Source: Candidatus Ryanbacteria bacterium CG10_big_fil_rev_8_21_14_0_10_43_42 (GTDB lineage Bacteria; Patescibacteriota; Minisyncoccia; Ryanbacterales; 2-02-FULL-48-12). From it: 64,000 nt of DNA. Under the pieces are notes generated by a model, which ran no database searches, was not told the DNA's origin, and worked only from the letters and a program-made list of their open reading frames with translations. Positions 1-58,053 of this stretch are shown piece after piece. The stretch's first letter is position 1; every line of letters starts with the position of its first letter. The stretch covers positions 7,571-71,570 of the forward strand of contig PFEF01000005.1 of NCBI GenBank assembly GCA_002793915.1. Reading direction: 5' to 3'. The position numbers and the translations under genes were made by a program.

Positions 1-125
1 AAACGTTTGCGCGGAAGCAAGAAAGGGAGCTGTCAGTAAAGAAAGAGGGGAAAGATATTTAAGTAATGTTGTCATTATGCTCTTTGAATATTAATTAATA
101 ATACGAAAAGTTCGACCTGTATTGG

Positions 126-485
126 TTACTGATTTGGTCCCAAGGGAATATCGGTAAAGCTGTCAGCCCCTTGTCCAAAGATAAAATCGAGAATAAGGTT
201 TACGAATCCCCAAACGGCAACCATAACGGCAAGAAAGATAATGCCCCACACAATCATCCCGCGGGCTTCTTTTCGTTTTTCTTCATCGCCACTTGCCAGG
301 ATGTAGCGCACAATACCCAAAAGGAAGAGGAATGTGGCAAGAAGAATAAGGAAACTTATCAGGATGTTGATAATATCGGAAGCGTCTGCAAGGAGATCTT
401 CAATATTCACATTTACCTGCGCAAGGGCGATAAAAGGAAAAAGAAGAGATCCTGCCGCAATGCCGTAACGTAAACGATGTATCAT
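126..485 (-). CDS. small membrane protein, VirB2/TrbC-pilin-like paralog P1 (signal peptide + 2 TM)
   Basis: 119 aa. N-terminal signal peptide ends ...ALA|Q. Core motif LLATxxFxxGIVRYIxAxGDxxxxxEARxxIVWGIIFLAVMVAVWGFV is shared with the five upstream paralogs. Confidence 0.6.
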   Translation of the reverse strand: MIHRLRYGIAAGSLLFPFIALAQVNVNIEDLLADASDIINILISFLILLATFLFLLGIVRYILASGDEEKRKEARGMIVWGIIFLAVMVAVWGFVNLILDFIFGQGADSFTDIPLGPNQ

Positions 486-693
486 GACAAGAAAATTATA
501 TTAATAATGTCTGCCCGCGGATAAAGCAGGCAACCTGCTTGTTTGAGTAAGAATTGCATGTATGGTGCATACAATAATGACCTTTGAAAAGTACATATAA
601 ATGTATCGTAATAGTATCATGAGCCAAATAGTGTCTACAATACGCAAGAAAGGAATGTTGGGGATAGTTTTCTCCAGTGAAAATTTTCGTTCA

Positions 694-1089
694 TTACGGA
701 AGGGCGCCTTTATCAAGGCGCGGGCCGGGAGGAATTACATCATTATTATTAATGGCATTTGGGTCATCGAATACAAAGTTAAGAAGAAGCGCAACAAATC
801 CCCAGATGGCAACCATCACAGCAAGAAAGATAATACCCCATACGATAAACTTTCGTGCTTCGGCAATTTGGTCTTGGTCTCCATGTGCCGATATGTACCG
901 CACGATGCCCCACATAAATACCGCCGTTGCTAGAAGTACAAAAAAAACGATACTGGCATTGATAAAATCAGCAACGTCAACGAGAACGTCCCCAATATCA
1001 ATGTTACCCTGGGCTGATGCAAAAAACGGCAGGGATAATATGCTGTACATAACGGCTATGGGTGAGATGTATGCGTAGTGTTTGAACAT
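694..1089 (-). CDS. pilin-like small membrane protein paralog P2
   Basis: 131 aa. Signal peptide ends ...ASA|Q. Two TM helices flank a GIVRYISAHGD...EARKFIVWGIIFLAVMVAIWGF core. Confidence 0.6.
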   Translation of the reverse strand: MFKHYAYISPIAVMYSILSLPFFASAQGNIDIGDVLVDVADFINASIVFFVLLATAVFMWGIVRYISAHGDQDQIAEARKFIVWGIIFLAVMVAIWGFVALLLNFVFDDPNAINNNDVIPPGPRLDKGALP

Positions 1090-1122
1090 AATGATAATTA
1101 TGAATAAAGGACAGTACTTATA

Positions 1123-1518
1123 TTAGGGTAGTCTGTCAATTAATGCGTTCGTATTTCCTTCGGGACCCATTGGTATGGTGGTGAAATCATCTGCTTCTTT
1201 GTTAAAAAAGAAATCGAGCAAGATATTGACGAATCCCCAAACGGCAACCATAACGGCAAGAAGGATAATGCCCCATACGATAAACTTTCGCGCTTCGGTG
1301 CGCTCGTTTTCATCTCCTCCGGCGGCAATATAGCGAACAATACCCCAGAGAAAAAGGAATGTGGCGCCTAAGATGGCGAGGGATATAAGGATGTTGAAAA
1401 GAATGGAAAAAGAATCAAGAACATTGAAAATATCATCTCCCGAAAACTGCGCGAGTACCGCTCCGGGAACGGCAAGAAAAGAAAGGGAAGGCAGGATGTA
1501 GTGTAGAAATGTTTTCAT
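1123..1518 (-). CDS. pilin-like small membrane protein paralog P3
   Basis: 131 aa. Signal peptide ends ...VLA|Q. Same two-TM core (WGIVRYIAAGGDENERTEARKFIVWGIILLAVMVAVWGF). Confidence 0.6.
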   Translation of the reverse strand: MKTFLHYILPSLSFLAVPGAVLAQFSGDDIFNVLDSFSILFNILISLAILGATFLFLWGIVRYIAAGGDENERTEARKFIVWGIILLAVMVAVWGFVNILLDFFFNKEADDFTTIPMGPEGNTNALIDRLP

Positions 1519-1541
1519 GTTTTGTGCGGTGCTGATATTGT

Positions 1542-1838
1542 CTATATGGGCTGTACGATATCTATGGGAATGGTTGGTGCCGGATCAAGGCCTGATCCGA
1601 AAACGAATCCGAAAAGCAGTGCAACAAGTCCCCATACGGCGGTAACGACGGCAAGAGAGACGATGCCCCAGACAATAAATCTTCGTGCTTCAGCGATTTG
1701 GTCTTCATTTCCGCCGGCAGTGAGGTAGCGGACAATACCCCACATAAATACCGCCGTTGCCGTTACCATTAAAAGAGGAATAACGATATTATTTAGAAGA
1801 AGCGCAATATTATGCAGTATGGCATCTATAGTAAGCAT
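1542..1838 (-). CDS. pilin-like small membrane protein paralog P4 (no recognisable signal peptide)
   Basis: 98 aa with the same two-TM core. Its start codon overlaps the P5 stop (TAATG on the minus strand), suggesting translational coupling. Confidence 0.55.
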   Translation of the reverse strand: MLTIDAILHNIALLLNNIVIPLLMVTATAVFMWGIVRYLTAGGNEDQIAEARRFIVWGIVSLAVVTAVWGLVALLFGFVFGSGLDPAPTIPIDIVQPI

Positions 1839-2155
1839 TATAATGCACTGAAGAAGTTAGAAATAACGAGCATGATGGCGCCGGTGCCAAACATAATAAA
1901 CATACCGACAATGCCCCAAATGATATAGCGTTTTCCCGTTGCCTGCGCTTCCTCGCTGTCAGCGCCCGCAATAAACCGGATGAGACCTATAATGAATACT
2001 ACGGTAGCGAGTACAAACAAAAATACAATGGCCGGTAATATGGCCTCATTCCATAGTTTTTTAATGATATCACCAAGCGTAGGGCTTGCCGGAATCTGTG
2101 CATGCGCCGAAGGGATGCCAAATAATAATTCCATGTAGGAAAGAATAATACTCAT
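1838..2155 (-). CDS. pilin-like small membrane protein paralog P5
   Basis: 105 aa. Signal peptide ends ...AHA|Q. Two-TM core with GxxxxGKRYIIWGIVG. Its start overlaps the P6 stop (ATGA). Confidence 0.6.
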   Translation of the reverse strand: MSIILSYMELLFGIPSAHAQIPASPTLGDIIKKLWNEAILPAIVFLFVLATVVFIIGLIRFIAGADSEEAQATGKRYIIWGIVGMFIMFGTGAIMLVISNFFSAL

Positions 2156-2589
2156 GGTACGCTAAGATTTTTAGCAAAGTTTACGATGGCCGTTGCGATA
2201 GCAAAGGCACCGATAACAATGACACCGCCGATAAGTGCCCAATAGAAAGTTGTTTTTGCCTGTTGGAGTTTTTGTTCATTTCCGCCGGACGTAACAAACA
2301 AGAACCCGGCGTAAATAAGAAAAATGGCAACGAGAGGAATGCCTATAGCAATAACGGCATTTGCGATTGCTTGTACGAGTTCGCCGAATGTTTTTGCGGC
2401 GATGGGATTGCTAATACCAAGCCCTCCGGTGGGTCCGGCAGGTGGCGGCGGTGTGGGTGTGGGTGAAGGAGGTGGTGGAGGAGGTGGTGGAAGTGATTGC
2501 GTATTCCCTGATAAGGGCAGGGTGAGTGCAAACAGGGCGAGAAGCATTGCGCGCTTTTTTGCAAAACGGATTACGGATGAAATAGTCAT
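2152..2589 (-). CDS. pilin-like small membrane protein paralog P6 with poly-Pro/Thr linker
   Basis: 145 aa: signal peptide, P8-SPTPTPPPP linker, then TM-SGGNEQKLQQAKTTFYWALIGGVIVIGAFAIA (canonical VirB2/TrbC-like layout). It is the first gene of the minus-strand array. Confidence 0.6.
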   Translation of the reverse strand: MTISSVIRFAKKRAMLLALFALTLPLSGNTQSLPPPPPPPPSPTPTPPPPAGPTGGLGISNPIAAKTFGELVQAIANAVIAIGIPLVAIFLIYAGFLFVTSGGNEQKLQQAKTTFYWALIGGVIVIGAFAIATAIVNFAKNLSVP

Positions 2590-2707
2590 GTAATTATAAT
2601 ACTACAGAAAAAGAAACTGCTATAGAGGATTATCCACAGAACAGAGAAAGTATAGCGGAATTCTATAGTATAATGAAAAGCATTATAAGATATTAACTAT
2701 TGTAACC

Positions 2708-5143
2708 ATGATACGCGCGCGCTTTTCCTTTATGCACATACTTTTTTCTGTCGTATTTGGCGTGGGAGGTATGCTGGCGTTATTTTTTACATTCACGTAT
2801 GCACAGTCATCAGCGTGTCATCTTTTGAATTCAAGCAATCCGGTTCCGCAGGGATATGGTGCCGCATATAATTCATTTTCAACAGGAAGAGAGCTTATTG
2901 CCGAGACGTTCTGTGACAATAATACCGTATCTGTTGTGGTAGGACAAAATGAAGATCAAAGTACGGTGGCGGTATGGAAACAGGGGTGGAAATGGAACGG
3001 ATCGTCGTGGTCGGAGATAACACTTTCCGGAACGCCGTTCACGGAAGATAGTAACTGGATTTTAGGAACGGGGCGCGTATTTATTCCGAGCAGTTCTTTT
3101 TCGGAAGGAGTACATGCGGTGGCGGTATTCGCCTGTGTTCTTGAGGGGGGTAATTGGCAATGCGGGTGTCGCGATAACTCTTGCGGTACCAGTAATTGGA
3201 TGCTTCAGCAATTTGCTGTTTCCTCAACACTTCCTCCGTCACCGAGCGGATGTATAGGCGCACCGCAGGGAGTGTGCGATGCGTACGATAACGGAACGGC
3301 AACGGGTACATACTGCAAAGACGGAAATACCCGTACCGTAACGGGGGATCCGGATTATGTATTTTGGGCCGCAAACAACACTATTTACCATCGTCTTTCC
3401 GCGCATGTCTTTATTGAGGTGTCTACGGGAGAATGGGATGCCGGACAAGCGGTATGCGAATCGGTGGAAAGCGCGCTTGATGTTGGCGGCGGCGGACAGT
3501 CATGTATAGGCGCACCGCAAGGAGTGTGCGATGCGTATTTAAATGAAACGGCCACCGGTACATACTGCAAAAATGGCATAATGAGTACCGTAACAGGGAC
3601 GCCCGAATATGTATATTGGGGTGCAAATAATACTATTTATCACCGCATGGCACACAATGTATTTGCCGATGTTCCCCAAGCAGATTGGGACGTATACGAG
3701 ACAGCATGTCAGGCAGGTACGACGCCAAACGGGTGCACGGGCGCGCCACAAGGAGTATGTACGGCATATATTAATGAATCGGCAACGGGCACGTATTGCA
3801 ATGACGGCGTGGAAAGTACCGTGACGGGAGATCCGGATTATGTATATTGGGGTGGGAACGATACCATTTATCATCGTCTTTACGATAGGGTTTTTAATAC
3901 GATTTCAAAAAGCGAATGGGACGGCACGAAAGCTATTTGTGCGGCGGAAGAATCGATTGCCAACTCGATAGTGCAGTGTAAGGGCGCGCCTCAAGGAGTG
4001 TGTGATGCGTATACAAACGGCATAGCAACGGGTACATACTGTAAAGACGGAAATACCCGTACCGTAACGGGAGATCCGGATTATGTATTTTGGGCGGGGA
4101 ATAATACTATTTATTATCGTCTGGGGACTGGTTCATTCGTACCGATTTCAGAGGCGGACTGGAATGCCGGACAGGCGGCATGCGGGAATGAATCGGTGCC
4201 ACGGTGCATAGGCGCGCCTCAAGGAGTGTGTGATGCGTATACAAATGGTACAGCAACAGGCACGTATTGTACGGATGCAAGTACCCGTACCGTAACGGGA
4301 GATCCGGATTATGTATTTTGGGGTGGGAACGATACTATTTACTACCGGCTTGCCGAAGGAGTATTCATACCCGTACCGCGTTCCGAATGGGATGCCGGGC
4401 AGAGTGCCTGTGAGGCAATGGAAAGCCAGCTTTCTTTGGGTACCGCATGCGTAGGCGCTCCGCAGGAATTGTGTACAGCATACAATAATGGAACGGCAAC
4501 GGGTAATTATTGTGCGCATGGCATAATGAGTACGGTTGCGGGAGACCCTGATTATGCATACTGGGGTCCTACCGATACTATTTATTACCGTCTTGCTCAT
4601 AACGTTTTTGTTCCGGTGGCGCGCAATGAATGGGACGCATATGAACAAGCATGCCTTCTTGGTATTAATAATGAAAACAGATGTGAGGGAGCATCAAGTT
4701 TTGTGTGTGACACCTATAAGGAGGGTATCGCTACAGGAACATATTGTCGGTATGGTGCGGAAAGTACCGTAACGGGAGATCCGGATTATGTATATGACGG
4801 TTTTTCCGACACTATTCACTATCGTTTGTGGGATGGTGTGTTTGAAACAGTGTTGAGTCCTAGTTGGGCGGCGGGACAAGCGGTATGTGCGTTGGAAGAG
4901 TCGGTGCGGAATACCTATACAACATGTACGGGCGCGCCGCAAGGGGTATGTAATGCGTATAATAACGGAACGGCAACGGGTACATACTGCAAAGACGGAA
5001 ATACCCGTACCGTAACGGGGGATCCGGATTATGTATTTTGGGGCGGGAACGATACCATTTACTACCGGCTTGATAAAGGATCTTTTGCGGAAATACCCCG
5101 TGCTACCTGGGATGCATTTCAAACACAATGCGATAGTATGTAA
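2708..5143 (+). CDS. secreted repeat protein: N-terminal signal/TM + 8 tandem ~80-aa four-cysteine repeats
   Basis: 811 aa. Repeat consensus C-x-GAPQGVCDAY-N-TATGTYC-DG-RTVTGDPDYVFWGGNDTIYYRL...W-D-Q-C. Repeats 1, 4 and 8 share a ~67-nt identical DNA stretch. Confidence 0.8.
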   Translation: MIRARFSFMHILFSVVFGVGGMLALFFTFTYAQSSACHLLNSSNPVPQGYGAAYNSFSTGRELIAETFCDNNTVSVVVGQNEDQSTVAVWKQGWKWNGSSWSEITLSGTPFTEDSNWILGTGRVFIPSSSFSEGVHAVAVFACVLEGGNWQCGCRDNSCGTSNWMLQQFAVSSTLPPSPSGCIGAPQGVCDAYDNGTATGTYCKDGNTRTVTGDPDYVFWAANNTIYHRLSAHVFIEVSTGEWDAGQAVCESVESALDVGGGGQSCIGAPQGVCDAYLNETATGTYCKNGIMSTVTGTPEYVYWGANNTIYHRMAHNVFADVPQADWDVYETACQAGTTPNGCTGAPQGVCTAYINESATGTYCNDGVESTVTGDPDYVYWGGNDTIYHRLYDRVFNTISKSEWDGTKAICAAEESIANSIVQCKGAPQGVCDAYTNGIATGTYCKDGNTRTVTGDPDYVFWAGNNTIYYRLGTGSFVPISEADWNAGQAACGNESVPRCIGAPQGVCDAYTNGTATGTYCTDASTRTVTGDPDYVFWGGNDTIYYRLAEGVFIPVPRSEWDAGQSACEAMESQLSLGTACVGAPQELCTAYNNGTATGNYCAHGIMSTVAGDPDYAYWGPTDTIYYRLAHNVFVPVARNEWDAYEQACLLGINNENRCEGASSFVCDTYKEGIATGTYCRYGAESTVTGDPDYVYDGFSDTIHYRLWDGVFETVLSPSWAAGQAVCALEESVRNTYTTCTGAPQGVCNAYNNGTATGTYCKDGNTRTVTGDPDYVFWGGNDTIYYRLDKGSFAEIPRATWDAFQTQCDSM

Positions 5144-5164
5144 TTGCACATAATACAGACAAAA

Positions 5165-5193
5165 ATCCGTTATTTATATAACGGATTTTTGTT
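5165..5193. terminator. bidirectional Rho-independent terminator between convergent genes
   Basis: 8-bp stem atccgtta/taacggat with loop tttata. T-runs follow on both strands. Confidence 0.6.
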
Positions 5194-5215
5194 TAGGCAC
5201 CATTTATGGTGTGTC

Positions 5216-5776
5216 TCAAAGGGGAGTTCCGGTGGGACAAAAACTTAATCCCAGTTCTTTGCCGATGTATTTATCATTGACGCTTTGTGGGACACGGACG
5301 GAAATTTTTAATGTACATGCCTGTTGTGGTGTAATATCCAGAAGCATAAGCAGGTCACGTTCCATTTCAGCACGTACAAAAGGGATATTGGAGCCGTTGT
5401 TTATGCTTACGGTAAAGCTTGTATCCGGCGGGTAATACAAAAGCGTATACGAAGTTTGTTCGTCGTGGAGAAATACAATATGTTCTTCGGTGATTATGAT
5501 CGTGGGATCCGTATAAAAATTATGTACGGACATTGGCTCACCGGACCAGTCGTTAACGGTGAACGTATCTCCCGTAGGTAAGGGGGGTGCGGTAATATTT
5601 CCGTCCCCGGTATTCGATCCCGGTATTGTTCCGGGAACGGGAAGCCCGTTTTGACCGGGATTAATTATGACGTCCGGAGGCGTCACGGATGTACGAAAAA
5701 AGAACGCGTATATACCGAAACCAGTAATACTGACTACGACTATAACTATAACAATAAGTAAATGGCGAATATTCAT
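5216..5776 (-). CDS. hypothetical membrane-anchored protein
   Basis: 186 aa with an N-terminal TM helix (LLIVIVIVVVSITGFGIYAFFF) and a Pro/Gly-rich segment. No recognisable domain. Confidence 0.5.
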   Translation of the reverse strand: MNIRHLLIVIVIVVVSITGFGIYAFFFRTSVTPPDVIINPGQNGLPVPGTIPGSNTGDGNITAPPLPTGDTFTVNDWSGEPMSVHNFYTDPTIIITEEHIVFLHDEQTSYTLLYYPPDTSFTVSINNGSNIPFVRAEMERDLLMLLDITPQQACTLKISVRVPQSVNDKYIGKELGLSFCPTGTPL

Positions 5777-5841
5777 AAATGTACTGTACTATAAATCATG
5801 ATTTTAAAAAATGACGTATAAGTAAATGATAAAAGATGTAA

Positions 5842-7008
5842 TTATAATAGATTACAGTCGCCGGCGGTTGACCAATCTTTCCAGGTATTCCCCGCTTCCG
5901 CATATACCTGACATGCTGCCTTAATGTTTGATTTGGCATTTTTTGCCGCAACAACACAGCTTGTATAGAGGCTTTGGTTTACAATGACATACTTGCCTCC
6001 GCTCAACTGAAATGCGGATGGACAATTGAGTCCTGCCACTGAATGAACAGCTATATTGATTTGAAACAGTCCGATGGAGAAAGGGCAATTATTGGGTGGA
6101 TAAGGCGCGGGGCATCCGCCTCCGGTGGCGCGGTCCACCGTGCTTTCTCTCGTCGGGTTACCCGCGCTTTCAGCGCCACATATCTGCGATGCTTGGTTTG
6201 CCACGGATGCAAAGCATGAGGAAGGAGAAGAAAGAGCGGAGACAGAGCACGGTCCGATGCTTACCGGACTGCATGTTCCCCCTCCCGCCGCCGGACAGTT
6301 ATCTCCCGGATTATTATCTTGGCACGTTGTCCATACTTTGCCGTATGTCGCGTTCTCGGTACATACTTGAGAGCCGCTTGCCGGTCCGCAACCCATAAAA
6401 TTACATGCCTGGGTATCTCCCAAATTTTCCGTACAAATCTCAAAGCATGCTGTGTCCCATATACCGTTTAAACACGCTTGTGTACCAGCACCTCCGGAGG
6501 TGGTTGTGCACGCACGCGTTGGTGTAGCTGTCGGGTCGCATGCTTCCGCGCCTCCTCCCCCTCCTCCGCCGCCCGTAAATGCTGGAACGATACGTGCCTG
6601 ACAGGTAGGAAAATCGTTCCAGGGAAGACCGCCTCCGAAGTTTTTAAATCCGATTGTGGAAAGAAGAGTGCTGATAATAACCCATGCGGCAAATGCAATG
6701 AGAATACCGATAATTGTGTTGTATAGAGCGGCTTTTCCGGTTTCGAGTTGTCCGGGGTTTCCGCGGGATGTAAGAAGGAGTATACCGCCTATAAGAAGGG
6801 ATATAACGGCTACCGGAAGAATAAACTTAAAGAGGATAAAATCGATAATATTCTTGACGAGTACATATAAGTCGCATAAATCGCATGCTTTTGTATCCCC
6901 GCAGGGAACAAGACCGCCACTTTGCGCATGTGCCATGTCACCCAATAATACGCCGCCTAATCCGAAAAGGAGAACAATAATAAAGAGAGTTGTAAGGATG
7001 CGGCGCAT
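5842..7008 (-). CDS. fusion protein: VirB2/TrbC-pilin-like N-domain + poly-Gly + Cys-rich VirB1/IagB-like lytic transglycosylase (SLT) C-domain
   Basis: 388 aa. Signal peptide ends AHA|Q, then two TM helices with SRGNPGQLETGKAALYNTIIG (pilin-like), then G8. The C-terminal domain carries AESAGNP...GLFQIN, matching the catalytic ES and GLMQIN motifs of SLT family 1. Confidence 0.55.
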   Translation of the reverse strand: MRRILTTLFIIVLLFGLGGVLLGDMAHAQSGGLVPCGDTKACDLCDLYVLVKNIIDFILFKFILPVAVISLLIGGILLLTSRGNPGQLETGKAALYNTIIGILIAFAAWVIISTLLSTIGFKNFGGGLPWNDFPTCQARIVPAFTGGGGGGGGAEACDPTATPTRACTTTSGGAGTQACLNGIWDTACFEICTENLGDTQACNFMGCGPASGSQVCTENATYGKVWTTCQDNNPGDNCPAAGGGTCSPVSIGPCSVSALSSPSSCFASVANQASQICGAESAGNPTRESTVDRATGGGCPAPYPPNNCPFSIGLFQINIAVHSVAGLNCPSAFQLSGGKYVIVNQSLYTSCVVAAKNAKSNIKAACQVYAEAGNTWKDWSTAGDCNLL

Positions 7009-7025
7009 AGTTATGGTGTGTATTA

Positions 7026-8336
7026 TTATTTTCTATCGTCGAGTAAGGTTGTAAGGCGTGCATGCGCTTCCGTTGCCGCGGTGTGCGGTTCGCGCCCGGC
7101 CAAAACGGCTTGTATCATATTTGTAAAAATGGTATCGGTTTCTTTTTCATGCGGATCATACCAGGTACGCGCCCGACGCGCCTCTTCATACATAATCGAA
7201 AAAATAGAATTTTCATGTCCGCGAGCAAGTACTGATCTTCGCACCGGCGCCATGCCAAAATTGGCGGCTATAAAGGGCGCTATGTCTTCCGAAGCAAAAA
7301 ATTTAGCAACTTGCCACGCCTCTTCCTGGTTGGTTGATGTTCGGGATACCACGAATCCTTCCGTGCGTCCGTATCCCATACGAAGAGGGGCATCCGTATA
7401 TTGAGGTACTAACGCTACCCCTATATTTACATGCACATTTGCTTTCATAATATCCGTAAGGTCACTGGCACGACCGACAAACATGGCGAGATCTTCGCGT
7501 GCAAAAGCCGATACGGGATTGGAGAATGTGCTATTCCAGCTGTAGGATGTTTTTTCTCTCTTGCCAAAATCCGTATAGAATCGAAGAGCCGATTCCGTAG
7601 GAGAAACATTAATGGAGTTTATGATGCGGCTTTCTCCCAGCGTGACATCTTTTGTTGCCGGATCAACAATAGCAGTGCCTCCCTGTAGAATAAGCAAGCT
7701 CATAATATCTTTTGCGTGTGGGATATTACGCGCAAGACCCATGGCGGATCCTGCACGCGTGATATTATCGCCCCCATTTTTTTTGGTAAGACGGATGCTT
7801 TGAATAAGAAATTCATCCCACGTGGTGGGCGGCAAGGACAGCGCCTCTCCGGCAAATAAATCTTTATTCCAAAATAGCACGAGAGGATCAATGGCGAGAG
7901 GAATGCCGAGGATGAGGCCATTTTGAAAAAATATATCACCGGCGGCTTCAATGTTTGTTTCTTCAAATTCTCTTTGAGTCATGTAAACGGAGGGTACCGG
8001 TGTTATCTTGTCTCGCATACGATGAAGCATGGTGTCGGGAATAAGCCACATATCAGGACCCGTGTCTATAGCAAGAGCGTTGATGAGATCATTTTCGAAT
8101 GTATCCGAACTTTTTTCAACGTAGGAAATTTTAATACTTGAATACTCCCGTTCGAATAAATCAATACTATCTTTCATGACGGAGTACGGATGTATGCCCC
8201 ATATGGTAAGGAATGTTTTTCTATTTGTATTGCGAATACCGGGGATAATACCAAGTAAAATAAGTACCACGACAAAAATAATGGCAATGGTGCCGATATA
8301 AATGGCAAGCTGGAGTTTGCTAGTTTCTTTATTCAT
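7026..8336 (-). CDS. extracellular solute-binding protein (ABC transporter, family 1-like)
   Basis: 436 aa. N-terminal TM anchor; the overall layout is consistent with MalE-type periplasmic binding proteins. Confidence 0.55.
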   Translation of the reverse strand: MNKETSKLQLAIYIGTIAIIFVVVLILLGIIPGIRNTNRKTFLTIWGIHPYSVMKDSIDLFEREYSSIKISYVEKSSDTFENDLINALAIDTGPDMWLIPDTMLHRMRDKITPVPSVYMTQREFEETNIEAAGDIFFQNGLILGIPLAIDPLVLFWNKDLFAGEALSLPPTTWDEFLIQSIRLTKKNGGDNITRAGSAMGLARNIPHAKDIMSLLILQGGTAIVDPATKDVTLGESRIINSINVSPTESALRFYTDFGKREKTSYSWNSTFSNPVSAFAREDLAMFVGRASDLTDIMKANVHVNIGVALVPQYTDAPLRMGYGRTEGFVVSRTSTNQEEAWQVAKFFASEDIAPFIAANFGMAPVRRSVLARGHENSIFSIMYEEARRARTWYDPHEKETDTIFTNMIQAVLAGREPHTAATEAHARLTTLLDDRK

Positions 8337-8344
8337 AGCATTGC

Positions 8345-8887
8345 TTATTTACCGCCATCCGTTTTTTTAAATAACATACCATAGTGATGTGATCCGGCAC
8401 TGAATTCTTTATCAAATACAAATCCTTCCTGTATCAGTAAATGTTCCACTTCCTTGCGGGGAACACGATATGGCAAAGGAGGCCCCGTATCCGATCCGCC
8501 TTCATCCCAATCGATAACGGCAGTATATCCGCGGGGTTTAAGTATGCGCCATGCCTCTTTAATAACAGCATTCTTTTTATCCGTCTGAAACAGTATATTA
8601 GCTATAAGAACAAAATCGATGGCGGTATCGGCAAGGCCGGAACCGCGTGGGCGTTCTACATCGGCACGGATTGATTCAATATGGTGGATACCGGCGGTTT
8701 CCGCTTGAGAGCGTACGGCTTCCAATGCTTCTGTTTGTACGTCAATGGCATATACGATTCCTCCGGGTCCTGTTAATTTTGCAAGCGAGAGCGCCCAGTG
8801 TCCGCCGCCGGTGCCAAAATCGGCAATATGCATGCCGGGCAAAATATTAAATGCTTTTGCAACAACGTCGGGGTGTAAAAATGCCAT
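8345..8887 (-). CDS. class I SAM-dependent methyltransferase
   Basis: 180 aa. Motif I is DFGTGGGHWALSLAK, followed by an acidic motif II (VYAIDV). Confidence 0.7.
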   Translation of the reverse strand: MAFLHPDVVAKAFNILPGMHIADFGTGGGHWALSLAKLTGPGGIVYAIDVQTEALEAVRSQAETAGIHHIESIRADVERPRGSGLADTAIDFVLIANILFQTDKKNAVIKEAWRILKPRGYTAVIDWDEGGSDTGPPLPYRVPRKEVEHLLIQEGFVFDKEFSAGSHHYGMLFKKTDGGK

Positions 8888-9322: not shown

Positions 9323-11764
9323 TTAGAGAGTGGTGATGGACGCTATTTTATCATTTGTATCCATCTTCATGATGCGTACGCCTTGTGTGGACCTGCCGAG
9401 CGTGGATACGGTGGATAAGGTGGTGCGAATAACCTGTCCGTGCTGGGAGACAGCGATAAGATCTTCTTCATCGGTTGATATAATGCGCGCGGCAACGATA
9501 GGTCCGGTTTTCGCCGTTATGTTCATAGTCTTAATGCCGGATCCGCCGCGTCCTTGTATTTTATATTCTCCGATATTGGTTTTCTTTCCGAATCCGTTTT
9601 CCGCAACTACCAAAAGTTTCTGATTTTTTGCCGTTTTTGCTATTACGTCGGCTCCCACAACGTTATCATCTTTCTTTAGTTTAATACCGCGCACGCCCGC
9701 TGATGTGCGTCCCATGGTGCGCGTATCTCCTTCCTGAAAGCGGATACTCATCCCTCCCTTGGTAACAAGAATAACGTCATCGCTTTTATGCAGTGTATGC
9801 ACCCACCCGAGCGCATCGCCTGCTCCCAGTTTAATGGCAATAATACCGGATCTTCGGACATCGGTAAAAAATTTCGCTTCTATTTTTTTAACGATACCGC
9901 ATCGGGTAATCATAATAAGAGAAAGTTCCGCAATATCTTTTTGGGCTTTTGGTATGGGCAGAATGGAAGTTATCTGCTCGGTGTCGGCAAGCATGAGAAA
10001 ATTGGCTATGGATTTTCCCTTTGACGTGCGTCGTCCTTCGGGAATTTCATAGGAGTGAATCTGATATACTTTGCCCAGGGAGGTAAAGAATAAGAGATTA
10101 TCATGTGTATGCACGGTAAGAAACTGATCCACAACGTCTTCTTCTTTTGTGGCCATGCCGATAGTGCCCTTTCCACCGCGTTTTTGCATACGATACTCCT
10201 GTGGATCAATGCGCTTAATGTAACCGCTTTTTGTAAGGATGATGGCCGCTTCCTCCTCCGGTACCATGTCTTCTATGGAAATGGATTTTGCGGCATGCGC
10301 TATTACGCGCGTGCGGCGCTCTTCGGGGAATGCTTTTTTCAGTTCCTCTGTTTCATTTTTAATGATGGCTAAAATCTTTTTCGGATCCTTTAAGATGCCC
10401 TTTAATTCGGCAATCAAGCGCAGTTTTTCGGCAAGTTCATCTTCTATTTTTTTACGTTCCAGTCCGGCGAGAGTTTGCAGACGCATTTCAAGAATGGCGC
10501 TTGCTTGTATGGTGGTAAGTGTGAAATTATTTATCAGATTTTTATGTGCTTCTTCTTTATCTTTCGATTTTCTGATTGTGGCTATTACCTTATCAATGTG
10601 GTCAAGGGCGATTTTAAGACCCTCCAGAATATGAGCGCGTTCTTCGGCTTTTGTAAGGTCAAAACGCGTGCGCCTTTCAATAACCACTTGCCGGTGCTTT
10701 ATAAATTCTTCCAGTATTGTTTTGAGAGCGAGAACTTGAGGCTGTAGACCATCTATGAGTGCCAGGGTATTTACATGAAATACGCGCTCCAGATCAGTGT
10801 GCTTATAAAGAGCGTTAAGTACTTTTTGCGGAAAAGCGCCGTTTTTAAGGTCGATGGCTATACGCATACCGTCTTTATCAGATTCATCGCGCAGGTCACG
10901 AATACCCTCTATACGTTTTTGATTTACCAGGTCGGCAATTTTTTCCAGAAGCGTCGTTTTATTCACCTGATAGGGGATGGAGTTGATGATGATTTGGAAT
11001 GATCCCTGTTTTGTTTCTGTTATTTCAGCTTCACCCCGTGTGAGAATACCGCCTCTGCCGGTTGCATAGGTTTGTCGGATGTCTTTTTTATTGAAAATAA
11101 TACCTCCCGTAGGAAAGTCGGGACCTTTTACGAATTCCATTAAATCTTCCGTAGTGGCTTGGGGATTTTCTATTAGGTGTATGATGGCATTCGCGAGTTC
11201 CAGCATGTTGTGCGGTGGAATATTTGTTGCCATGCCAACGGCAATACCCAAAGAGCCATTGAGGAGTAATTGCGGTACAACAGTAGGAAGTACGACGGGT
11301 TCTTGTTTGGATCCGTCATAATTCGGACTAAACGGAACGGTATCTTTTTCAATATCGGCAAGCATAAGCTCGGCAATGCGCGCCATACGGCACTCGGTAT
11401 ACCTCATTGCCGCCGCTGAATCTCCATCAATACTGCCAAAATTACCCTGTCCTTCAATGAGCGGATAGCGAAACGAGAAATCTTGCGCCATGCGCACCAA
11501 AGAGTCGTATACGGCGGTATCTCCGTGCGGATGATATTTCCCCAGTACTTCTCCCACAACATTTGCCGATTTTCTGTATTTGGCAGAATGGGTAAGTCCC
11601 AGCTCATGCATGGCGTATAAAATACGGCGGTGTACGGGCTTTAGTCCGTCACGAACATCGGGGAGGGCGCGCATGACAATAACAGACATCGCATAATCCA
11701 AATACGATTCTTTCATTTCGGTGACAATTTCGCGTCCCTCGGTTCGTTCAATAATATCGTCCAT
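9323..11764 (-). CDS. gyrA: DNA gyrase subunit A
   Basis: 813 aa. N-terminus has [28 protein letters not shown], with the active-site Tyr region, plus C-terminal beta-pinwheel repeats. Confidence 0.95.
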
Positions 11765-17775: not shown

Positions 17776-18429
17776 ATGGGGTATTATTGTCTTTATAGAA
17801 TAAAAAATATGCAAGAAACACAGGAAAAAAAATCAACACATAAAGAAGATGAAGATATAGCGATTACAAAAAACGAGACGAAAGACAAGCACCGATCTTT
17901 TAAGGAAGAAGTTTTTGATCTCTTTAAAGTTATCGTTATTTCTCTCGTTATCGTACTTCCCATTCGGTTGTATGTAGCTCAACCCTTTATTGTACGCGGC
18001 GCTTCTATGGAGCCAAATTTCTCAAATGGGGAATATCTCATCGTTGATGAAATTTCTTATCGCTTACATGAGCCGAGGCGCGGGGACGTTATCGTGTTTC
18101 GATATCCGGAAGATCCTTCGCAATTTTTTATAAAACGCATTATTGGCCTTCCGGAAGATACGGTAATCATTAAAAGTGGGACGGTTACCATTCAAAATGA
18201 TAATTATCCTAATGGATTATCTCTCGATGAAACATATATCCCTTCGGAAACACGCACCGTACCGGACGGAGAAATCACGGTGGGCAAGGATGAATATTTC
18301 GTATTGGGAGATAATCGTGAATTTAGTTCCGATTCCCGAAGATGGGGAATGCTTAACGAGGAATTTCTTGTGGGACGCGCATGGCTTCGGCTGTGGCCCC
18401 TTCTTAATATTGGGGTAATCGGAGAGTAA
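17776..18429 (+). CDS. lepB: signal peptidase I
   Basis: 217 aa. Boxes present: VRGASMEPNF (catalytic Ser), GDNREFSSDSRRWG (box E) and the catalytic Lys region. The start may instead be at 17809. Confidence 0.85.
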   Translation: MGYYCLYRIKNMQETQEKKSTHKEDEDIAITKNETKDKHRSFKEEVFDLFKVIVISLVIVLPIRLYVAQPFIVRGASMEPNFSNGEYLIVDEISYRLHEPRRGDVIVFRYPEDPSQFFIKRIIGLPEDTVIIKSGTVTIQNDNYPNGLSLDETYIPSETRTVPDGEITVGKDEYFVLGDNREFSSDSRRWGMLNEEFLVGRAWLRLWPLLNIGVIGE

Positions 18430-53892: not shown

Positions 53893-54417
53893 TAGGGAGT
53901 CTGTATAAGCTAATGTGGCATTGACGAAAGGGGCGATATTTCGTATACTGTACAGGATCCGCGAATTGTTTCTTGACTTGTCTTATCCACAGTTTTTAGG
54001 GCAAGTTCCTTTGGAAATAGAGGAAATTATTCTTATAATGGGTGTACCTTTCGCGTAAGCGATGTTGCGGTGAGCGGAATGTAGCGCTTTTTGTTTCTTT
54101 ACTATCCGTCTATACAATATATTAGCTTGAATGATGGTGGCATATTTTCACTTGAAATATATGTACATGTCGGTATCATTCAGGTCGATATGTTAGTCCG
54201 GAGAATGTAATCCGGTTCTGCAAGACTGAACATTAACAAATGAATAGTGAGCAAAAAGACGGCACAGAAATGTGTGAAGTTTTTTCATTTGTTATTCGAC
54301 AGAGTTATTTCACAAGTCGATTACATTATTAGTTCGGATGTGCGTGTTGTGCGTATGGTCGGTATGTGCAACATATTACACACATCCAAAAAAACATTAC
54401 TATTAGATTTTAAGCAT

Positions 54418-57400: not shown

Positions 57401-58053
57401 GTCTTCCACAAACAACGCTTACATCTGGTAATCATGTGCTTTATCGGTTCAAGATAACGGCAGACCCAGCATATGATGTTGCATTGCATAAAGTAGCCTT
57501 TAGTGTTGCAACAACCGGTCCGGCAACTATGGCTTTCTCCGGTTCTCCAGCAAACTTCACGCTTTGGAACACAACTGATAACAAGAGAGTATCAGCGGCG
57601 ACAGGTACAACAAATGCGATCTATGACGACATTAACTACTACAATGCAAACAGTCAGTTAATTGTTCGTATTCTCGCAGATACCACCGATTATTCCAGCG
57701 CATGGGTAACTATTCCGGCAGGTCAGACACATACCTTTGATCTTCGCGCGGATATTATCAGTGATGGTTCTGGTGATTCGGTGTCTACGAAACTCCTTGG
57801 TGATGATGCGCGGGACCCAAGACTTTCGTTAACGGGATCGGCTGCCGTTACCATGCAGACTGTTGCTGCGATAGACGATGGTCATAATGCGGGTGGAACC
57901 TCGAACGTTGCTTCCAGTTCCAACTTCATATGGTCAGACTTCTCTACTGACGCAACGACGACGCATGCTATAACCACGCATGACTGGATGAACGGCTTCA
58001 AAGTGCCGGGACTCCTCTCAACGGGTCTTGACTCATCGACATTGTCGAACTAG
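54418..58053 (+). CDS. large cell-surface protein (signal anchor, coiled coil, PG_binding_1-like domain, (GT)n linker, ~1000-aa Ser/Thr/Gly-rich beta region)
   Basis: 1212 aa from ATG 54418. SVADLQAQINALLAQITALQAQL coiled coil; CLQQYLN...YFGPITRAAVSSWQAANGV PG-binding-like; GTGTGTGTGTGTGTTGTG linker; no Cys thereafter. Confidence 0.7.
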   Translation: MSRYQKMVRKATSVFVSLTTTIWLAGFGTLVPFAANAQSVADLQAQINALLAQITALQAQLAAGGGSVSTGAVSCNFTRSLTIGVQGEDVRCLQQYLNGAGHTLASSGAGSPGSETTYFGPITRAAVSSWQAANGVSPTAGYFGPISMAKYNALIAAIPPVTGGGTGTGTGTGTGTGTGTTGTGITVGSASQPAATLAVQNAIHVPFTSFTLTASSDGNVLVDSITVERTGLANDAAFAGVVLLDENMMQITQNPKTFNSNHQAILTDDFTVPAGQTKRFYLAGNMAASLTAYAGQVANLRLVAVNSTAQVNGALPIEGTGHTINASLSVGSVTLTRGTNDPNTGVTKEVGTTGYTFSSIKATAGSAEDMLVKSIRWNQSGSASKDDLENVIVVDTKTGNEYTPTVSSDGKYYSADFGSGISIKKGENTEVYIKGDIKSGSGRTVDFDLYRYDDFVFEGKTFGYKIKPSSTETSADNDDDSEFQDSQPRYDASQVEIGTGSLRVEKSNDVQASNVANGADGVELGSFKFDVDGEAISFTQWVLTIATTDADSGGENSVLTNITVYDSNGNAVAGPTDPNSAGSAVTITDSITVPVGDNIYTVRGDLNNNWQNNDTIIVSFTPSSALSQVTGDTTGNTITPTPSTAVSANVQTIKAGGLVVTPSTSLASQTLIEGSNGVELGRFVLDGTASGEDIKITVVKILGDVTGADINDFVSLQLFDGTTALNTGSNVLQPAATADGTDLVLSFTLDSPGLIIPKGSTKIISLKGNITTAANDGDQAKFDFSASVSDGDWGTSGVDSGQDIVETFSTAAGATITTQSGGGWSVSAAPSKPTEKWVTAGATGVTLNVLRFNSTSEEFALTDLRLQIDTTGSSTGADFTKIYLYDGSTLLQSKTPAFTNGVEDFTFPTTGTGAFVIPKDDFNELTIKADLATIGASQPGTAGQLVGVDYDGANSTKNKAQGKASGTSKHSSTASDVTGNGVVYFRSVPTIERVSLPQTTLTSGNHVLYRFKITADPAYDVALHKVAFSVATTGPATMAFSGSPANFTLWNTTDNKRVSAATGTTNAIYDDINYYNANSQLIVRILADTTDYSSAWVTIPAGQTHTFDLRADIISDGSGDSVSTKLLGDDARDPRLSLTGSAAVTMQTVAAIDDGHNAGGTSNVASSSNFIWSDFSTDATTTHAITTHDWMNGFKVPGLLSTGLDSSTLSN

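What the first reader, a model, noticed from the sequence alone, without database searches (positions are those of the whole stretch)
126..2589. Six-gene array of highly diverged VirB2/TrbC-pilin-like paralogs with conserved AxA|Q processing site
Six consecutive minus-strand genes (98-145 aa) share one layout: a signal peptide ending A-x-A followed by Gln, two TM helices, and a GD/GG-containing connector. VirB2 (T-pilin) and TrbC conjugative pilins are cleaved after Ala to expose an N-terminal Gln. The six paralogs have diverged strongly except in the TM core. P6/P5 and P5/P4 overlap by ATGA and TAATG, consistent with translational coupling. P4 lacks a signal peptide. P6 carries a P8-SPTPTPPPP spacer. 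No VirB4, VirB11 or VirD4 ATPase gene is present in this window, so the pilins are not visibly part of a T4SS. This looks like a lineage-specific surface-filament or pilin repertoire, possibly used for antigenic or functional diversification.
Basis: partly seen in the sequence, partly recalled or inferred. Interest (0 to 1): 0.7.

Follow-up and report, generated by a model that had tools for sequence, protein, structure and literature searches.

The report
Patescibacterial VirB2-like pilin gene array
This is a tandem array of small VirB2-like "type IV secretion pilin" genes (Pfam PF18895) in an ultra-small Candidatus Ryanbacteria (Patescibacteria) genome; such arrays were already described in 2018-2025, so it is a real but largely ordinary example of a known kind.

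Summary
The six minus-strand genes are real paralogs. All six match Pfam PF18895 (T4SS_pilin): four above the curated threshold, two just below it. The array is larger than reported. Two more paralogs lie beyond the left window edge, and a ninth pilin domain is fused to a lysozyme-like domain at 5842-7008. The source is Ca. Ryanbacteria CG10_big_fil_rev_8_21_14_0_10_43_42 (locus tags COU90_015xx).

VirB2 homology is supported only through a chain of profile comparisons. The position-1 paralog class aligns full-length to genuine VirB2 (hhalign 94%, AxA|Q in register). All classes align to each other at 94-99.8%.

The kind is published: 441 arrays of 2-11 divergent pilin genes in 383 Patescibacteria assemblies, and an essential array in S. 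epibionticum.

What I add:
- In 66 of 66 related Paceibacteria loci with the relevant DNA, the array follows a membrane-anchored solute-binding protein and a methyltransferase beside gyrA. No VirB4 lies within 10 kb.
- The paralogs fall into conserved classes, which points to a multi-component assembly. Only the six "core" copies look like a lineage-specific expansion.

No T4SS ATPase is in the window. A published table lists VirB4 elsewhere in this genome; I could not verify that.

Verdict: new member of a known kind, low to moderate interest.

The parts
1..74 (-). First 25 codons of a seventh tandem pilin gene (126 aa, core class C, COU90_01510). It runs off the left window edge, and an eighth pilin gene (128 aa) follows on the native contig.
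   Evidence: L001 10411-10791 and 10869-11255. PF18895 is precomputed for both. The 126-aa protein is 63% identical to P1.
126..485 (-). P1, 119 aa, core-class (C) VirB2-like pilin. Signal peptide ends ALA|Q, followed by two TM helices and an IPLGPNQ tail.
   Evidence: PF18895 35.9 bits, E 7.7e-9. AF2 model with pLDDT 79 shows signal helix 2-20, helix 28-63, loop, helix 68-103. NF045849 33.3 bits.
694..1089 (-). P2, 131 aa, core-class pilin paralog, ASA|Q.
   Evidence: PF18895 25.0 bits, just below the gathering score of 26.6. It is 48-53% identical to P4, P3, P1 and G.
1123..1518 (-). P3, 131 aa, core-class pilin paralog, VLA|Q.
   Evidence: PF18895 35.4 bits.
1542..1838 (-). P4, 98 aa, core-class pilin paralog without a signal peptide. 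Its start overlaps the P5 stop codon (TAATG).
   Evidence: PF18895 36.3 bits; sequence. Signal-less core copies also occur in other loci.
1838..2155 (-). P5, 105 aa, class D paralog. This short class is single-copy in 63 of 64 related loci and is usually the last gene of the array. AHA|Q is present, but the signal peptide is doubtful.
   Evidence: PF18895 23.8 bits. Best hits fall on the terminal position in 47 of 66 loci. Community analysis. hhalign class C vs class D 99.4%.
2152..2589 (-). P6, 145 aa, class A2 paralog (position 2 in other genomes). Basic signal peptide, GNT|Q, poly-proline spacer, then the pilin hairpin. Its stop codon overlaps the P5 start (ATGA).
   Evidence: PF18895 33.3 bits and PF04956 17.8 bits. 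Best hit is position 2 in 50 of 66 loci. hhalign A1 vs A2 99.8%.
2708..5143 (+). 811-aa secreted repeat protein (about eight Cys-containing repeats of about 85 aa, leader TYA|Q) inserted on the opposite strand. It is probably a passenger and not a conserved part of the locus.
   Evidence: It is absent from this position in all but one related locus. Its length is 803 aa in one metagenome and 811 aa in another.
5216..5776 (-). 186-aa single-pass membrane protein of unknown family. It sits between the position-1 pilin and the rest of the array in a subset of genomes.
   Evidence: No Pfam or NCBIfam match. Homologues occupy the same position in 7 loci. A hairpin terminator-like site follows at 5192-5159.
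5842..7008 (-). N388 (COU90_01555), class A1 pilin. AHA|Q leader, VPCG...C..C motif and VirB2-like hairpin, fused through a Gly-rich linker and a Cys-rich beta domain to a C-terminal lysozyme / lytic-transglycosylase-like domain.
7026..8336 (-). 436-aa membrane-anchored solute-binding protein (SBP_bac_1/8, MalE-like), encoded immediately upstream of the first pilin gene. A conserved partner.
   Evidence: PF13416 73.7 bits and PF01547 71.9 bits. It lies upstream of the first pilin on the same strand in 66 of 66 loci, with a median gap of 7 bp.
8345..8887 (-). 180-aa class I SAM-dependent methyltransferase, conserved upstream of the SBP and between it and gyrA.
   Evidence: Found in 62 loci, with a median gap of 15 bp to the SBP gene.
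17776..18429 (+). Signal peptidase I (LepB). A housekeeping gene and the inferred enzyme that would cut the AxA|Q leaders.
   Evidence: PF10502 152 bits. Its role in this locus is inference only.

Best explanation
**What the locus encodes**

It encodes the pilin-like subunits (Pfam PF18895, distant VirB2/TrbC relatives) of the chromosomal type IV secretion-like apparatus typical of Patescibacteria.

**Shown**
- There are nine pilin-domain genes: N388, P6, P5, then six core copies (P4, P3, P2, P1, plus two beyond the window edge).
- Each has a helix-loop-helix hairpin.
- Eight of the nine have a signal-like N-terminus followed by Gln.
- N388 also carries a lysozyme-like domain.
- The genes sit in an operon-like unit behind a membrane-anchored solute-binding protein and a methyltransferase. 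This arrangement is conserved across Paceibacteria.

**Inferred**
- Precursors are inserted by Sec/YidC with both termini outside and the charged loop in the cytoplasm.
- Signal peptidase I cuts after A-x-A, exposing Gln. The Gln may become pyroglutamate or be joined head-to-tail as in the T-pilin.
- A VirB4-type machine encoded elsewhere in the genome extracts the hairpins from the membrane and polymerises them.
- The multi-copy core class forms the bulk of the filament, and its variable termini sit on the outer surface.
- The conserved low-copy classes (A1, A2, D) act as specialised subunits, for example initiator, base or tip.
- The lysozyme domain of A1 does the VirB1-like job of opening peptidoglycan.
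- By analogy with Southlakia epibionticum, where such pilins are essential, the structure is a host-contact fibre or conduit for the epibiotic lifestyle.
For: - **Family:** PF18895 hits all six genes and all 95 aligned relatives.
- **VirB2 homology:** class A1 against seven genuine VirB2/TrbC proteins gives hhalign 94.4%, E 8.7e-8, full length, with the AxA|Q sites in register. Inter-class hhalign probabilities are 94-99.8%.
- **Other conjugative pilin-like families:** NF045849, the Mycoplasma ICE pilin-like conjugal transfer protein, matches P1 at E 2.9e-8 and P6 at E 1.2e-7.
- **Leader site:** in 90 family members, position -1 is Ala in 88, +1 is Gln in 72, and -3 is A/V/T in 86. A|Q is invariant in genuine VirB2. 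It is absent from the other secreted proteins of the window, apart from N388 and the 811-aa repeat protein of this same locus.
- **Fold:** the AF2 model is a hairpin with pLDDT 79. The T-pilus VirB2 (8exh) and the archaeal conjugation pilin (8dfu) appear among the top Foldseek hits, though not at significant levels.
- **Surface pattern:** among the core copies the termini are 26-32% identical and the helices and loop 52-61%. This is the pattern expected for a VirB2-type pilus with exposed termini.
- **Conserved classes and order** across about 70 species.
- **Lysozyme-like domain on N388**.
- **Literature:** arrays of 2-11 pilins in 383 assemblies; VirB4 listed as present in this assembly (PMC12102498). 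Pilins are essential in S. epibionticum (PMC10633639). A review proposes a pilus conduit (PMC12857230).
Against: - No filament made of these proteins has ever been seen.
- The six genes of the finding have no direct significant profile match to PF04956 or to genuine VirB2: hhalign 3-26%, and no PDB sequence or Foldseek match. A two-helix hairpin is a generic fold.
- No VirB4, VirB6 or VirD4 lies in the 64-kb window, in the roughly 4 kb seen beyond its left edge, in the 10 kb beyond its right edge, or within 10 kb of any of about 80 related arrays. The link to a T4SS machine therefore rests on a published table that I could not verify.
- The constant neighbour is a solute-binding protein, which is not a known T4SS part.
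- P4 and most class D proteins lack a signal peptide.
Confidence: 0.6

Rival explanations
1. The hairpins are not filament subunits. They stay in the cytoplasmic membrane as a hetero-oligomeric ring or channel that works with the co-encoded membrane-anchored solute-binding protein. This would be an uptake or sensing device that does not need VirB4 and has merely been named "pilin" by remote homology.
For: - The SBP gene lies directly upstream on the same strand in 66 of 66 loci, with a median gap of 7 bp.
- No T4SS ATPase lies within 10 kb in any locus.
- Fixed classes with fixed order and near-fixed copy number resemble a stoichiometric complex.
- The loop and TM helices are the most conserved parts.
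- Some members lack signal peptides.
Against: - There is homology to VirB2 and to ICE pilin-like proteins.
- In Saccharimonadia the homologous arrays sit inside the T4SS cluster and are essential together with it (PMC10633639, PMC12857230).
- The conserved AxA|Q leader is the same as in the T-pilin.
- The lysozyme fusion fits an envelope-spanning structure.
- No ABC permease or ATPase genes are adjacent to the SBP.
Confidence: 0.2
2. The array is chiefly a variation repertoire: interchangeable VirB2 paralogs expressed alternately to vary surface antigenicity or host-strain range, as proposed for the Bartonella and Anaplasma virB2 arrays.
For: - There are six core-class copies at 30-63% identity, and their divergence is concentrated in the exposed termini.
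- Core-class copy number varies from 1 to 6 between species, with lineage-specific clusters.
- PMC12102498 suggests adaptation to different host strains.
Against: - N388, P6 and P5 belong to ancient classes kept at fixed positions across about 70 species, so they are not interchangeable.
- Tight spacing and overlapping stop/start codons argue for co-expression, not alternation.
- The promoter scan returned fewer promoter-like sites in 1-8400 than expected by chance, so it gives no support for per-gene promoters. The repeat search was for direct repeats only and found no recombination-type repeats; invertible elements were not looked for.
- The proteins are identical across several metagenome samples.
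Confidence: 0.12
3. The small two-TM proteins are holin-like or immunity-like membrane proteins that control the adjacent lysozyme-domain protein, forming a lysis or cell-wall remodelling cassette.
For: - A lysozyme-like domain is encoded in the locus.
- Small hairpin membrane proteins with charged loops resemble class II holins.
Against: - In most species the position-1 paralog has no lysozyme domain, being only 125-150 aa.
- The locus sits in conserved housekeeping synteny, not in a prophage.
- There are no holin family hits, whereas there are significant pilin-family hits.
- Cleavable Sec leaders are atypical for holins.
Confidence: 0.03

Closest known systems
VirB2-like pilin arrays of Patescibacteria (PF18895 T4SS_pilin): the 'Sec-secreted array' of Nanosynbacter lyticus TM7x, the essential pilin series of Southlakia epibionticum ML1, and the 441 arrays surveyed by Quinonero-Coronel et al. 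2025
   Same: - The Pfam family is the same.
- Both are tandem arrays of 2-11 small, signal-peptide-bearing, two-helix proteins.
- Identity within an array is low: published average 25% and maximum 54%; here 16-63%.
- Both occur in monoderm, host-dependent ultra-small bacteria.
- This very assembly (GCA_002793915.1) was in the surveyed dataset.
   Different: - Here the array is not in a virB4 cluster. It lies behind a solute-binding protein and a methyltransferase next to gyrA, an arrangement I found throughout Paceibacteria and did not see described in the papers I read.
- With nine pilin domains it is at the upper end of the range seen in my sample of relatives (3-8 per locus).
- One copy is fused to a lysozyme-like domain.
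VirB2 / TrbC conjugative pilins of Gram-negative MPF-T systems (PF04956; T-pilin, RP4 TrbC)
   Same: - Size is about 100-145 aa.
- The long leader is cut after A-x-A to expose Gln; this motif is invariant in the seven genuine sequences examined.
- Both have a helix-loop-helix hairpin.
- There is full-length profile homology for the position-1 class (94%).
   Different: - The six genes of the finding fall below the PF04956 threshold and show no direct significant profile match.
- Genuine virB2 is a single gene flanked by virB1 and virB3. Here there are many copies with no VirB neighbours.
- The organism is a monoderm.
- Cyclisation and lipid-containing pilus assembly are untested.
Tandem virB2 paralogs of Bartonella and Anaplasma
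   Same: Several divergent VirB2 paralogs lie side by side, and surface variation has been proposed as their purpose (cited in PMC12102498).
   Different: - Those are diderm intracellular pathogens of animals.
- Here most of the diversity is ancient and position-specific. This argues for distinct structural roles and against antigenic variation as the main purpose.
Mbov_0395 family pilin-like conjugal transfer protein of Mycoplasma ICEs (NCBIfam NF045849)
   Same: - It is a small two-helix protein of a monoderm conjugation system.
- It is the only other significant family match: P1 E 2.9e-8, P6 E 1.2e-7, P5 E 2.4e-5.
- This fits the reported MPF-FATA ancestry of patescibacterial VirB4.
   Different: - Scores (24-33 bits) are below the curated cut-off of 40.
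- In Mycoplasma it is a single gene inside a mobile element. Here it is a chromosomal multi-copy array.
Archaeal Ced/Ted DNA-import pilins (CedA1, TedC)
   Same: They are VirB2-like helical hairpin pilins of a non-conjugative T4SS relative. The A. pernix pilin 8dfu appears among the Foldseek hits (TM 0.52-0.63 on the target).
   Different: The matches are not significant (E about 4), and no sequence similarity was detected.

Membership tests
PF18895 T4SS_pilin (patescibacterial VirB2-like pilins) | Match to the Pfam model at or above the gathering score (26.6 bits) | tested here: met
   P1 35.9, P3 35.4, P4 36.3, P6 33.3 and N388 28.6 bits. P2 (25.0) and P5 (23.8) are just below, but P2 is tied in by 48-53% identity to P4, P3, P1 and G and P5 by the class-level profile comparisons (hhalign 94-99%). 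All 95 aligned relatives match.
PF18895 T4SS_pilin (patescibacterial VirB2-like pilins) | Small protein with an N-terminal leader and two hydrophobic helices joined by a short polar loop | tested here: met
   Hydropathy scan and AF2 model of P1 with helices 28-63 and 68-103. P4 lacks the leader and that of P5 is doubtful.
Patescibacterial VirB2 arrays (Quinonero-Coronel 2025) | Two or more pilin genes in tandem, or separated by one non-pilin gene, in a Patescibacteria genome, with low mutual identity | tested here: met
   Eight tandem genes plus one upstream copy. Identity is 16-63%. The organism is Ca. Ryanbacteria, class Paceibacteria.
Patescibacterial T4SS gene cluster | Pilin genes located near virB4 (within 20 CDS), together with VirB3/PrgI, VirB6 and TrsD | tested here: not met
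   No such gene is in the 64-kb window, in the roughly 4 kb seen to the left or the 10 kb to the right, or within 10 kb of any related array.
Patescibacterial T4SS gene cluster | A VirB4 ATPase somewhere in the same genome | not testable with these tools
   Table S1 of PMC12102498 lists GCA_002793915.1 as VirB4 'Yes'. The per-protein table is truncated in the held copy, and I had no way to scan the rest of the genome.
TrbC/VirB2 conjugative pilins (PF04956) | Match to PF04956 at or above the gathering score (27.9 bits) | tested here: not met
   The best scores are N388 19.0 bits (E 0.0017), P6 17.8 (E 0.0039) and P5 10.4. Four of 95 relatives reach E <= 0.01.
TrbC/VirB2 conjugative pilins (PF04956) | Profile-profile homology to genuine VirB2/TrbC sequences | tested here: inconclusive
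   Class A1 (N388 type): 94.4%, E 8.7e-8, 109 columns. Class A2 (P6): 26%. Classes C and D: 3-17%. The six genes are linked only transitively.
TrbC/VirB2 conjugative pilins (PF04956) | Leader peptide ending A-x-A with Gln as the first mature residue | tested here: met
   The motif is invariant in seven genuine VirB2/TrbC proteins. It is present in P1, P2 and P5, with VLA|Q in P3 and GNT|Q in P6, and in 72 of 90 relatives. Actual cleavage was not tested.
TrbC/VirB2 conjugative pilins (PF04956) | Structural match to a solved conjugative pilin | tested here: inconclusive
   Foldseek against the PDB gives no hit with E < 0.5. 8exh (T-pilus) ranks 3rd and 8dfu 17th for N388; 8dfu ranks 28th for P1. 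A hairpin fold is not discriminating.
TrbC/VirB2 conjugative pilins (PF04956) | Polymerises into an extracellular, lipid-containing pilus; head-to-tail cyclisation in the T-pilin and TrbC | not testable with these tools
   This needs microscopy and mass spectrometry.
Type IV pilins (T4P / T2SS pseudopilins) | Class III leader cut by prepilin peptidase (G|F/M-x-x-x-E) followed by a single N-terminal hydrophobic helix | tested here: not met
   None of the nine sequences has the motif. All have two TM helices and an SPase I-type site.
Mycoplasma ICE pilin-like protein (NF045849) | Score at or above the curated cut-off (40 bits) | tested here: not met
   P1 33.3, P6 31.3 and P5 23.9 bits. The E-values are significant but the scores are below the cut-off.
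Antigenic-variation VirB2 arrays (Bartonella/Anaplasma type) | Paralogs are recent, interchangeable duplicates that vary at exposed positions | tested here: inconclusive
   This is consistent for the six core copies. It does not hold for N388, P6 and P5, which are ancient position-specific classes.

The most novel reading that the evidence does not exclude
In Paceibacteria the pilin array is a self-contained, conserved operon beside gyrA: methyltransferase, membrane-anchored solute-binding protein, two "A" pilins (one sometimes carrying a lysozyme domain), a variable number of core pilins, and one short "D" pilin. It is physically uncoupled from virB4. Under this reading it builds a heteromeric hairpin-protein fibre or channel whose dedicated partner is the solute-binding protein. 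That would make it a nutrient-capture conduit from the host, not a secretion pilus. The shared N-terminal Gln and the conserved IPxGPxQ tail would mark a T-pilin-like cyclisation or other maturation step.
Probability: 0.15. Interest if true: 0.65.

Novelty: new member of a known kind. Interest (0 to 1): 0.3.

Why it matters
Patescibacteria are a large part of bacterial diversity and depend on host cells. Their T4SS-like system, with its unusual pilin arrays, is essential in the one species tested, and its function is unknown. This locus adds no new kind of element. It does show three things:
- In the large class Paceibacteria, the pilins travel with a solute-binding protein and a methyltransferase, not with the ATPase.
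- The "divergent paralogs" fall into conserved classes with fixed order.
- One class can carry the wall-cutting enzyme.

These observations turn the vague idea of "pilin diversification" into testable hypotheses about a multi-component structure and about nutrient uptake.

Tried and rejected
- **PDB sequence search** with the family profile: no conjugative pilin, best E 0.25.
- **Foldseek against the PDB** with both models: nothing significant.
- **hhalign of the core-class alignment against genuine VirB2:** only a 22-column match at the cleavage site, probability 17%. Splitting the family into classes was needed to obtain the 94% link.
- **Promoter and terminator scan of 1-8400:** counts at or below shuffle expectation. 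Only the hairpin at 5192-5159 is noteworthy.
- **Independent confirmation of VirB4 in this genome** failed. Table S3 of PMC12102498 is truncated in both held versions. The 524-kb NCBI contig was not returned by the contig look-ups. This assembly was not among the 80 loci kept from the genome collection scan. Walking beyond the window is limited to 10 kb.
- **Type IV pilin reading:** rejected, because there is no prepilin-peptidase motif.
- **Holin/endolysin cassette:** rejected (see rival explanations).
- **DNA-level repeats:** they only reflect the conserved helix-coding segments at 66-73% identity. They give no sign of recent gene conversion.

Full report
**1. Checking the observation**

The six minus-strand ORFs exist exactly where stated: 126-485, 694-1089, 1123-1518, 1542-1838, 1838-2155 and 2152-2589 (98-145 aa).
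- Each has two strongly hydrophobic segments joined by a short G-(D/N)-E-rich loop.
- The ATGA and TAATG overlaps and the proline spacer of P6 are in the sequence.
- All six match Pfam PF18895 "T4SS_pilin". P1, P3, P4 and P6 score 33-36 bits against a gathering score of 26.6. P2 (25.0) and P5 (23.8) fall just under it.

Three corrections are needed.
- **The array is cut by the window edge.** Bases 74-1 begin a seventh gene (126 aa), and an eighth (128 aa) follows on the native contig. After that come ordinary genes: CYTH, undecaprenyl-diphosphate synthase and acylphosphatase.
- **There is a ninth pilin domain.** It forms the N-terminus of the 388-aa protein at 5842-7008.
- **A-x-A|Q is not universal.** P1, P2 and P5 have it, P3 has VLA|Q, P6 has GNT|Q and P4 has no leader. 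The leader of P5 is doubtful, because it has no basic residue and its orthologue in another Ryanbacteria genome has only about 13 residues there. What is conserved is Gln at +1.

**2. Source organism and surroundings**

[quoted passage not shown] This organism belongs to class Paceibacteria, assembly GCA_002793915.1, 904 kb.

The rest of the window is housekeeping: gyrA, mfd, pth, lepB, hisS, ftsA/Z, murJ, lepA, a release factor, ftsEX, an M13 peptidase, lexA and glycosyltransferases. None of the ORFs scanned against Pfam (every ORF of 300 aa or more and most of those of 150-300 aa) is a VirB4, VirB11 or VirD4. The 10 kb to the right of the window also lacks them.

**3. Family and homology**

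*Family profile.* A profile of the window paralogs retrieves hundreds of 95-150-aa proteins. Nearly all are pre-annotated with PF18895, and those that carry an organism name come from Parcubacteria-group MAGs. An exhaustive HMMER search finds 40,908 representatives of 50%-identity clusters at E <= 1e-3, so this is a very large family.

*Direct evidence for VirB2 relatedness of the six genes is weak.*
- PF04956 is sub-threshold, with P6 best at 17.8 bits.
- No PDB sequence hit was found.
- Foldseek gives nothing significant for a confident AF2 hairpin model (pLDDT 79).
- hhalign of the core-class alignment against seven genuine VirB2/TrbC proteins fetched from plasmids aligns only the cleavage site, at 17% probability.

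*Splitting the family into classes resolves this.* I split the Paceibacteria family by similarity and repeated hhalign.
- The position-1 class (N388 type) aligns to VirB2 over 109 of 117 columns, at 94.4% probability and E 8.7e-8. The A-x-A|Q sites and both helices are in register.
- The classes align to each other at 94-99.8%.
- So the six genes are VirB2 superfamily members by transitive homology.

*Independent support.*
- NCBIfam NF045849, the "Mbov_0395 family pilin-like conjugal transfer protein" of Mycoplasma ICEs, matches P1 (E 2.9e-8), P6 and P5 below its cut-off.
- The A|Q site is invariant in the genuine VirB2 set. It is present in 72 of 90 family members, with Ala at -1 in 88 of 90.
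- A|Q is not a general habit of this organism's secreted proteins.

**4. Comparative anatomy**

One scan of the species-representative genome collection returned 80 loci. Every record whose title names a lineage is a Patescibacteria MAG, apart from one 2.4-kb contig binned as Ignavibacteriaceae.
- An HMM built from the family finds 3-8 pilin ORFs per locus, mostly 4-6, always in tandem on one strand.
- Upstream synteny is striking. A homologue of the window's 436-aa membrane-anchored solute-binding protein (SBP_bac_1/8) precedes the first pilin on the same strand in 66 of 66 loci that contain the region, with a median gap of 7 bp.
- A homologue of the 180-aa SAM methyltransferase precedes the SBP in 62 loci, with a median gap of 15 bp. 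gyrA is found before that in 57 loci and a Lactamase_B_3 protein in 46.
- Downstream genes vary and are housekeeping (IF-2, RbfA, DUF4446, Band_7).
- None of the conserved flanking gene clusters within 10 kb of these arrays is a T4SS ATPase.

*Paralog classes* (best-hit mapping and community clustering).

| Class | Window members | Behaviour in related loci |
|---|---|---|
| A | N388, P6 | Positions 1 and 2 (66 and 53 loci); two copies per locus in 52 of 71 |
| D | P5 | About 90 aa, mostly leaderless; single-copy in 63 of 64 loci; last gene in 44 of 58 |
| C (core) | P4, P3, P2, P1 and the two off-window genes | Copy number varies from 1 to 6; forms lineage-specific clusters |

The window therefore reads: A1 (N388), a 186-aa membrane protein, an inserted 811-aa repeat protein on the other strand, A2 (P6), D (P5), then six class C copies. 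Among the six core copies, pairwise identity is 52-61% in the helices and loop but only 26-32% in the mature N-terminal segment and the C-tail.

**5. The fused enzyme**

**6. What is already known**

- McLean et al. (bioRxiv 10.1101/258137) described arrays of 4-6 small signal-peptide proteins related to VirB2 in Saccharibacteria.
- Wang et al. 2023 (PMC10633639) showed that a series of predicted pilins inside the T4SS cluster is essential in Southlakia epibionticum.
- Quinonero-Coronel et al. 2025 (PMC12102498) searched 3,035 genomes with PF04956 and PF18895. They found pilins in 1,948 VirB4-containing assemblies, near virB4 in only 1,135 of them. They counted 441 arrays of 2-11 genes with a mean identity of 25%. 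They suggested host-range adaptation by analogy with Bartonella and Anaplasma.
- Their Table S1 lists this very assembly as VirB4-positive.
- A 2025 review proposes that the pilins form a pilus-like conduit (PMC12857230).

**7. Mechanism**

*Best-supported reading (confidence about 0.6).* These are the pilin subunits of the patescibacterial T4SS-like apparatus.
- Shown: family membership, hairpin topology, the conserved leader site, the class structure, the lysozyme domain and the operon context.
- Inferred: Sec/YidC insertion; cleavage by signal peptidase I (a lepB gene is at 17776-18429) to expose Gln; extraction and polymerisation by a distant VirB4 machine; core copies as the major subunit with variable exposed termini; A1, A2 and D as specialised subunits; the lysozyme domain of A1 as the VirB1 equivalent.

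*Main rival (about 0.2).* The hairpins stay in the membrane as a complex working with the SBP. This is suggested by the invariable SBP linkage and by the complete absence of T4SS ATPases nearby.

*Other rivals.* Antigenic or host-range variation (about 0.12) can explain only the core-copy expansion. A holin-type role is unlikely (about 0.03).

**8. Verdict**

The VirB2-like interpretation is right. The "lineage-specific diversification" reading is mostly not supported. The kind is known, which makes this a new member of a known kind.

Three points may be worth following up. I did not find them in the papers I read, but that was not a complete literature survey.
- The conserved methyltransferase, SBP and pilin operon beside gyrA in Paceibacteria.
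- The four position-specific pilin classes.
- The pilin-lysozyme fusion.

Noticed in passing
window 1-74 (minus strand) and L001 10411-11255: The pilin array continues past the left window edge with two more paralogs (126 aa, COU90_01510, and 128 aa). After them come CYTH, a small ORF, undecaprenyl-diphosphate synthase and acylphosphatase.
   Followed up: yes
window 7026-8887 (minus strand): A membrane-anchored MalE-like solute-binding protein and a small SAM methyltransferase precede the pilins. The same order, with gaps of a few bases, is found in essentially every related Paceibacteria locus (66 of 66 for the SBP). No ABC permease or ATPase lies next to the SBP. The methyltransferase has weak, generic similarity to PrmC/HemK glutamine methyltransferases among many others.
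   Followed up: partly
[not shown]
   Followed up: yes
window 2708-5143 (plus strand): An 811-aa secreted protein made of about eight Cys-containing repeats of about 85 aa (consensus GAPQGVCDAY..GTATGTYC...TVTGDPDYV.W..N.TIY.RL). It has no Pfam family and its leader ends TYA|Q like the pilins. It is inserted inside the pilin locus on the opposite strand. Its length differs between metagenome samples (803 vs 811 aa). The only related locus with a homologue (L014, 31% identity) also has it next to a pilin gene.
   Followed up: partly
window 5216-5776 (minus strand): A 186-aa single-pass membrane protein with a Pro/Gly-rich linker and no family match. Homologues sit at the same place (after the position-1 pilin) in 7 related loci, most of which (6 of 7) have a position-1 pilin that carries the long C-terminal extension. 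A strong hairpin follows at 5192-5159.
   Followed up: partly
L009/L010 1-2896 compared with window 9323-11764: In a related Ryanbacteria genome, gyrA is 1,291 aa and contains an intein with a LAGLIDADG endonuclease. The window's gyrA (813 aa) has no intein.
   Followed up: no
proteins P0157-P0255: Many library proteins contain 2-8 consecutive pilin domains in one polypeptide, for example 820 aa with 8 domains. These may be true fusions. They may also be neighbouring array genes merged by gene calling, for instance under an alternative genetic code that reads through UGA.
   Followed up: no
family alignment A2; window P1 residues 104-119: The C-terminal tails of core-class pilins end in a conserved I-P-x-G-P-x-Q/P motif, with two prolines more than 90% conserved. 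This could be a processing or cyclisation signal matching the conserved N-terminal Gln.
   Followed up: partly
window 54247-58053, 59841-61142 and 61271-62803 (plus strand): A cluster of large secreted proteins: a 1,268-aa protein and a 433-aa protein with PG_binding_1 domains, and a 510-aa protein with lamin-tail and PKD domains. They are candidate surface or adhesion proteins of this epibiont-type organism and are followed by a block of GT4 glycosyltransferases.
   Followed up: no
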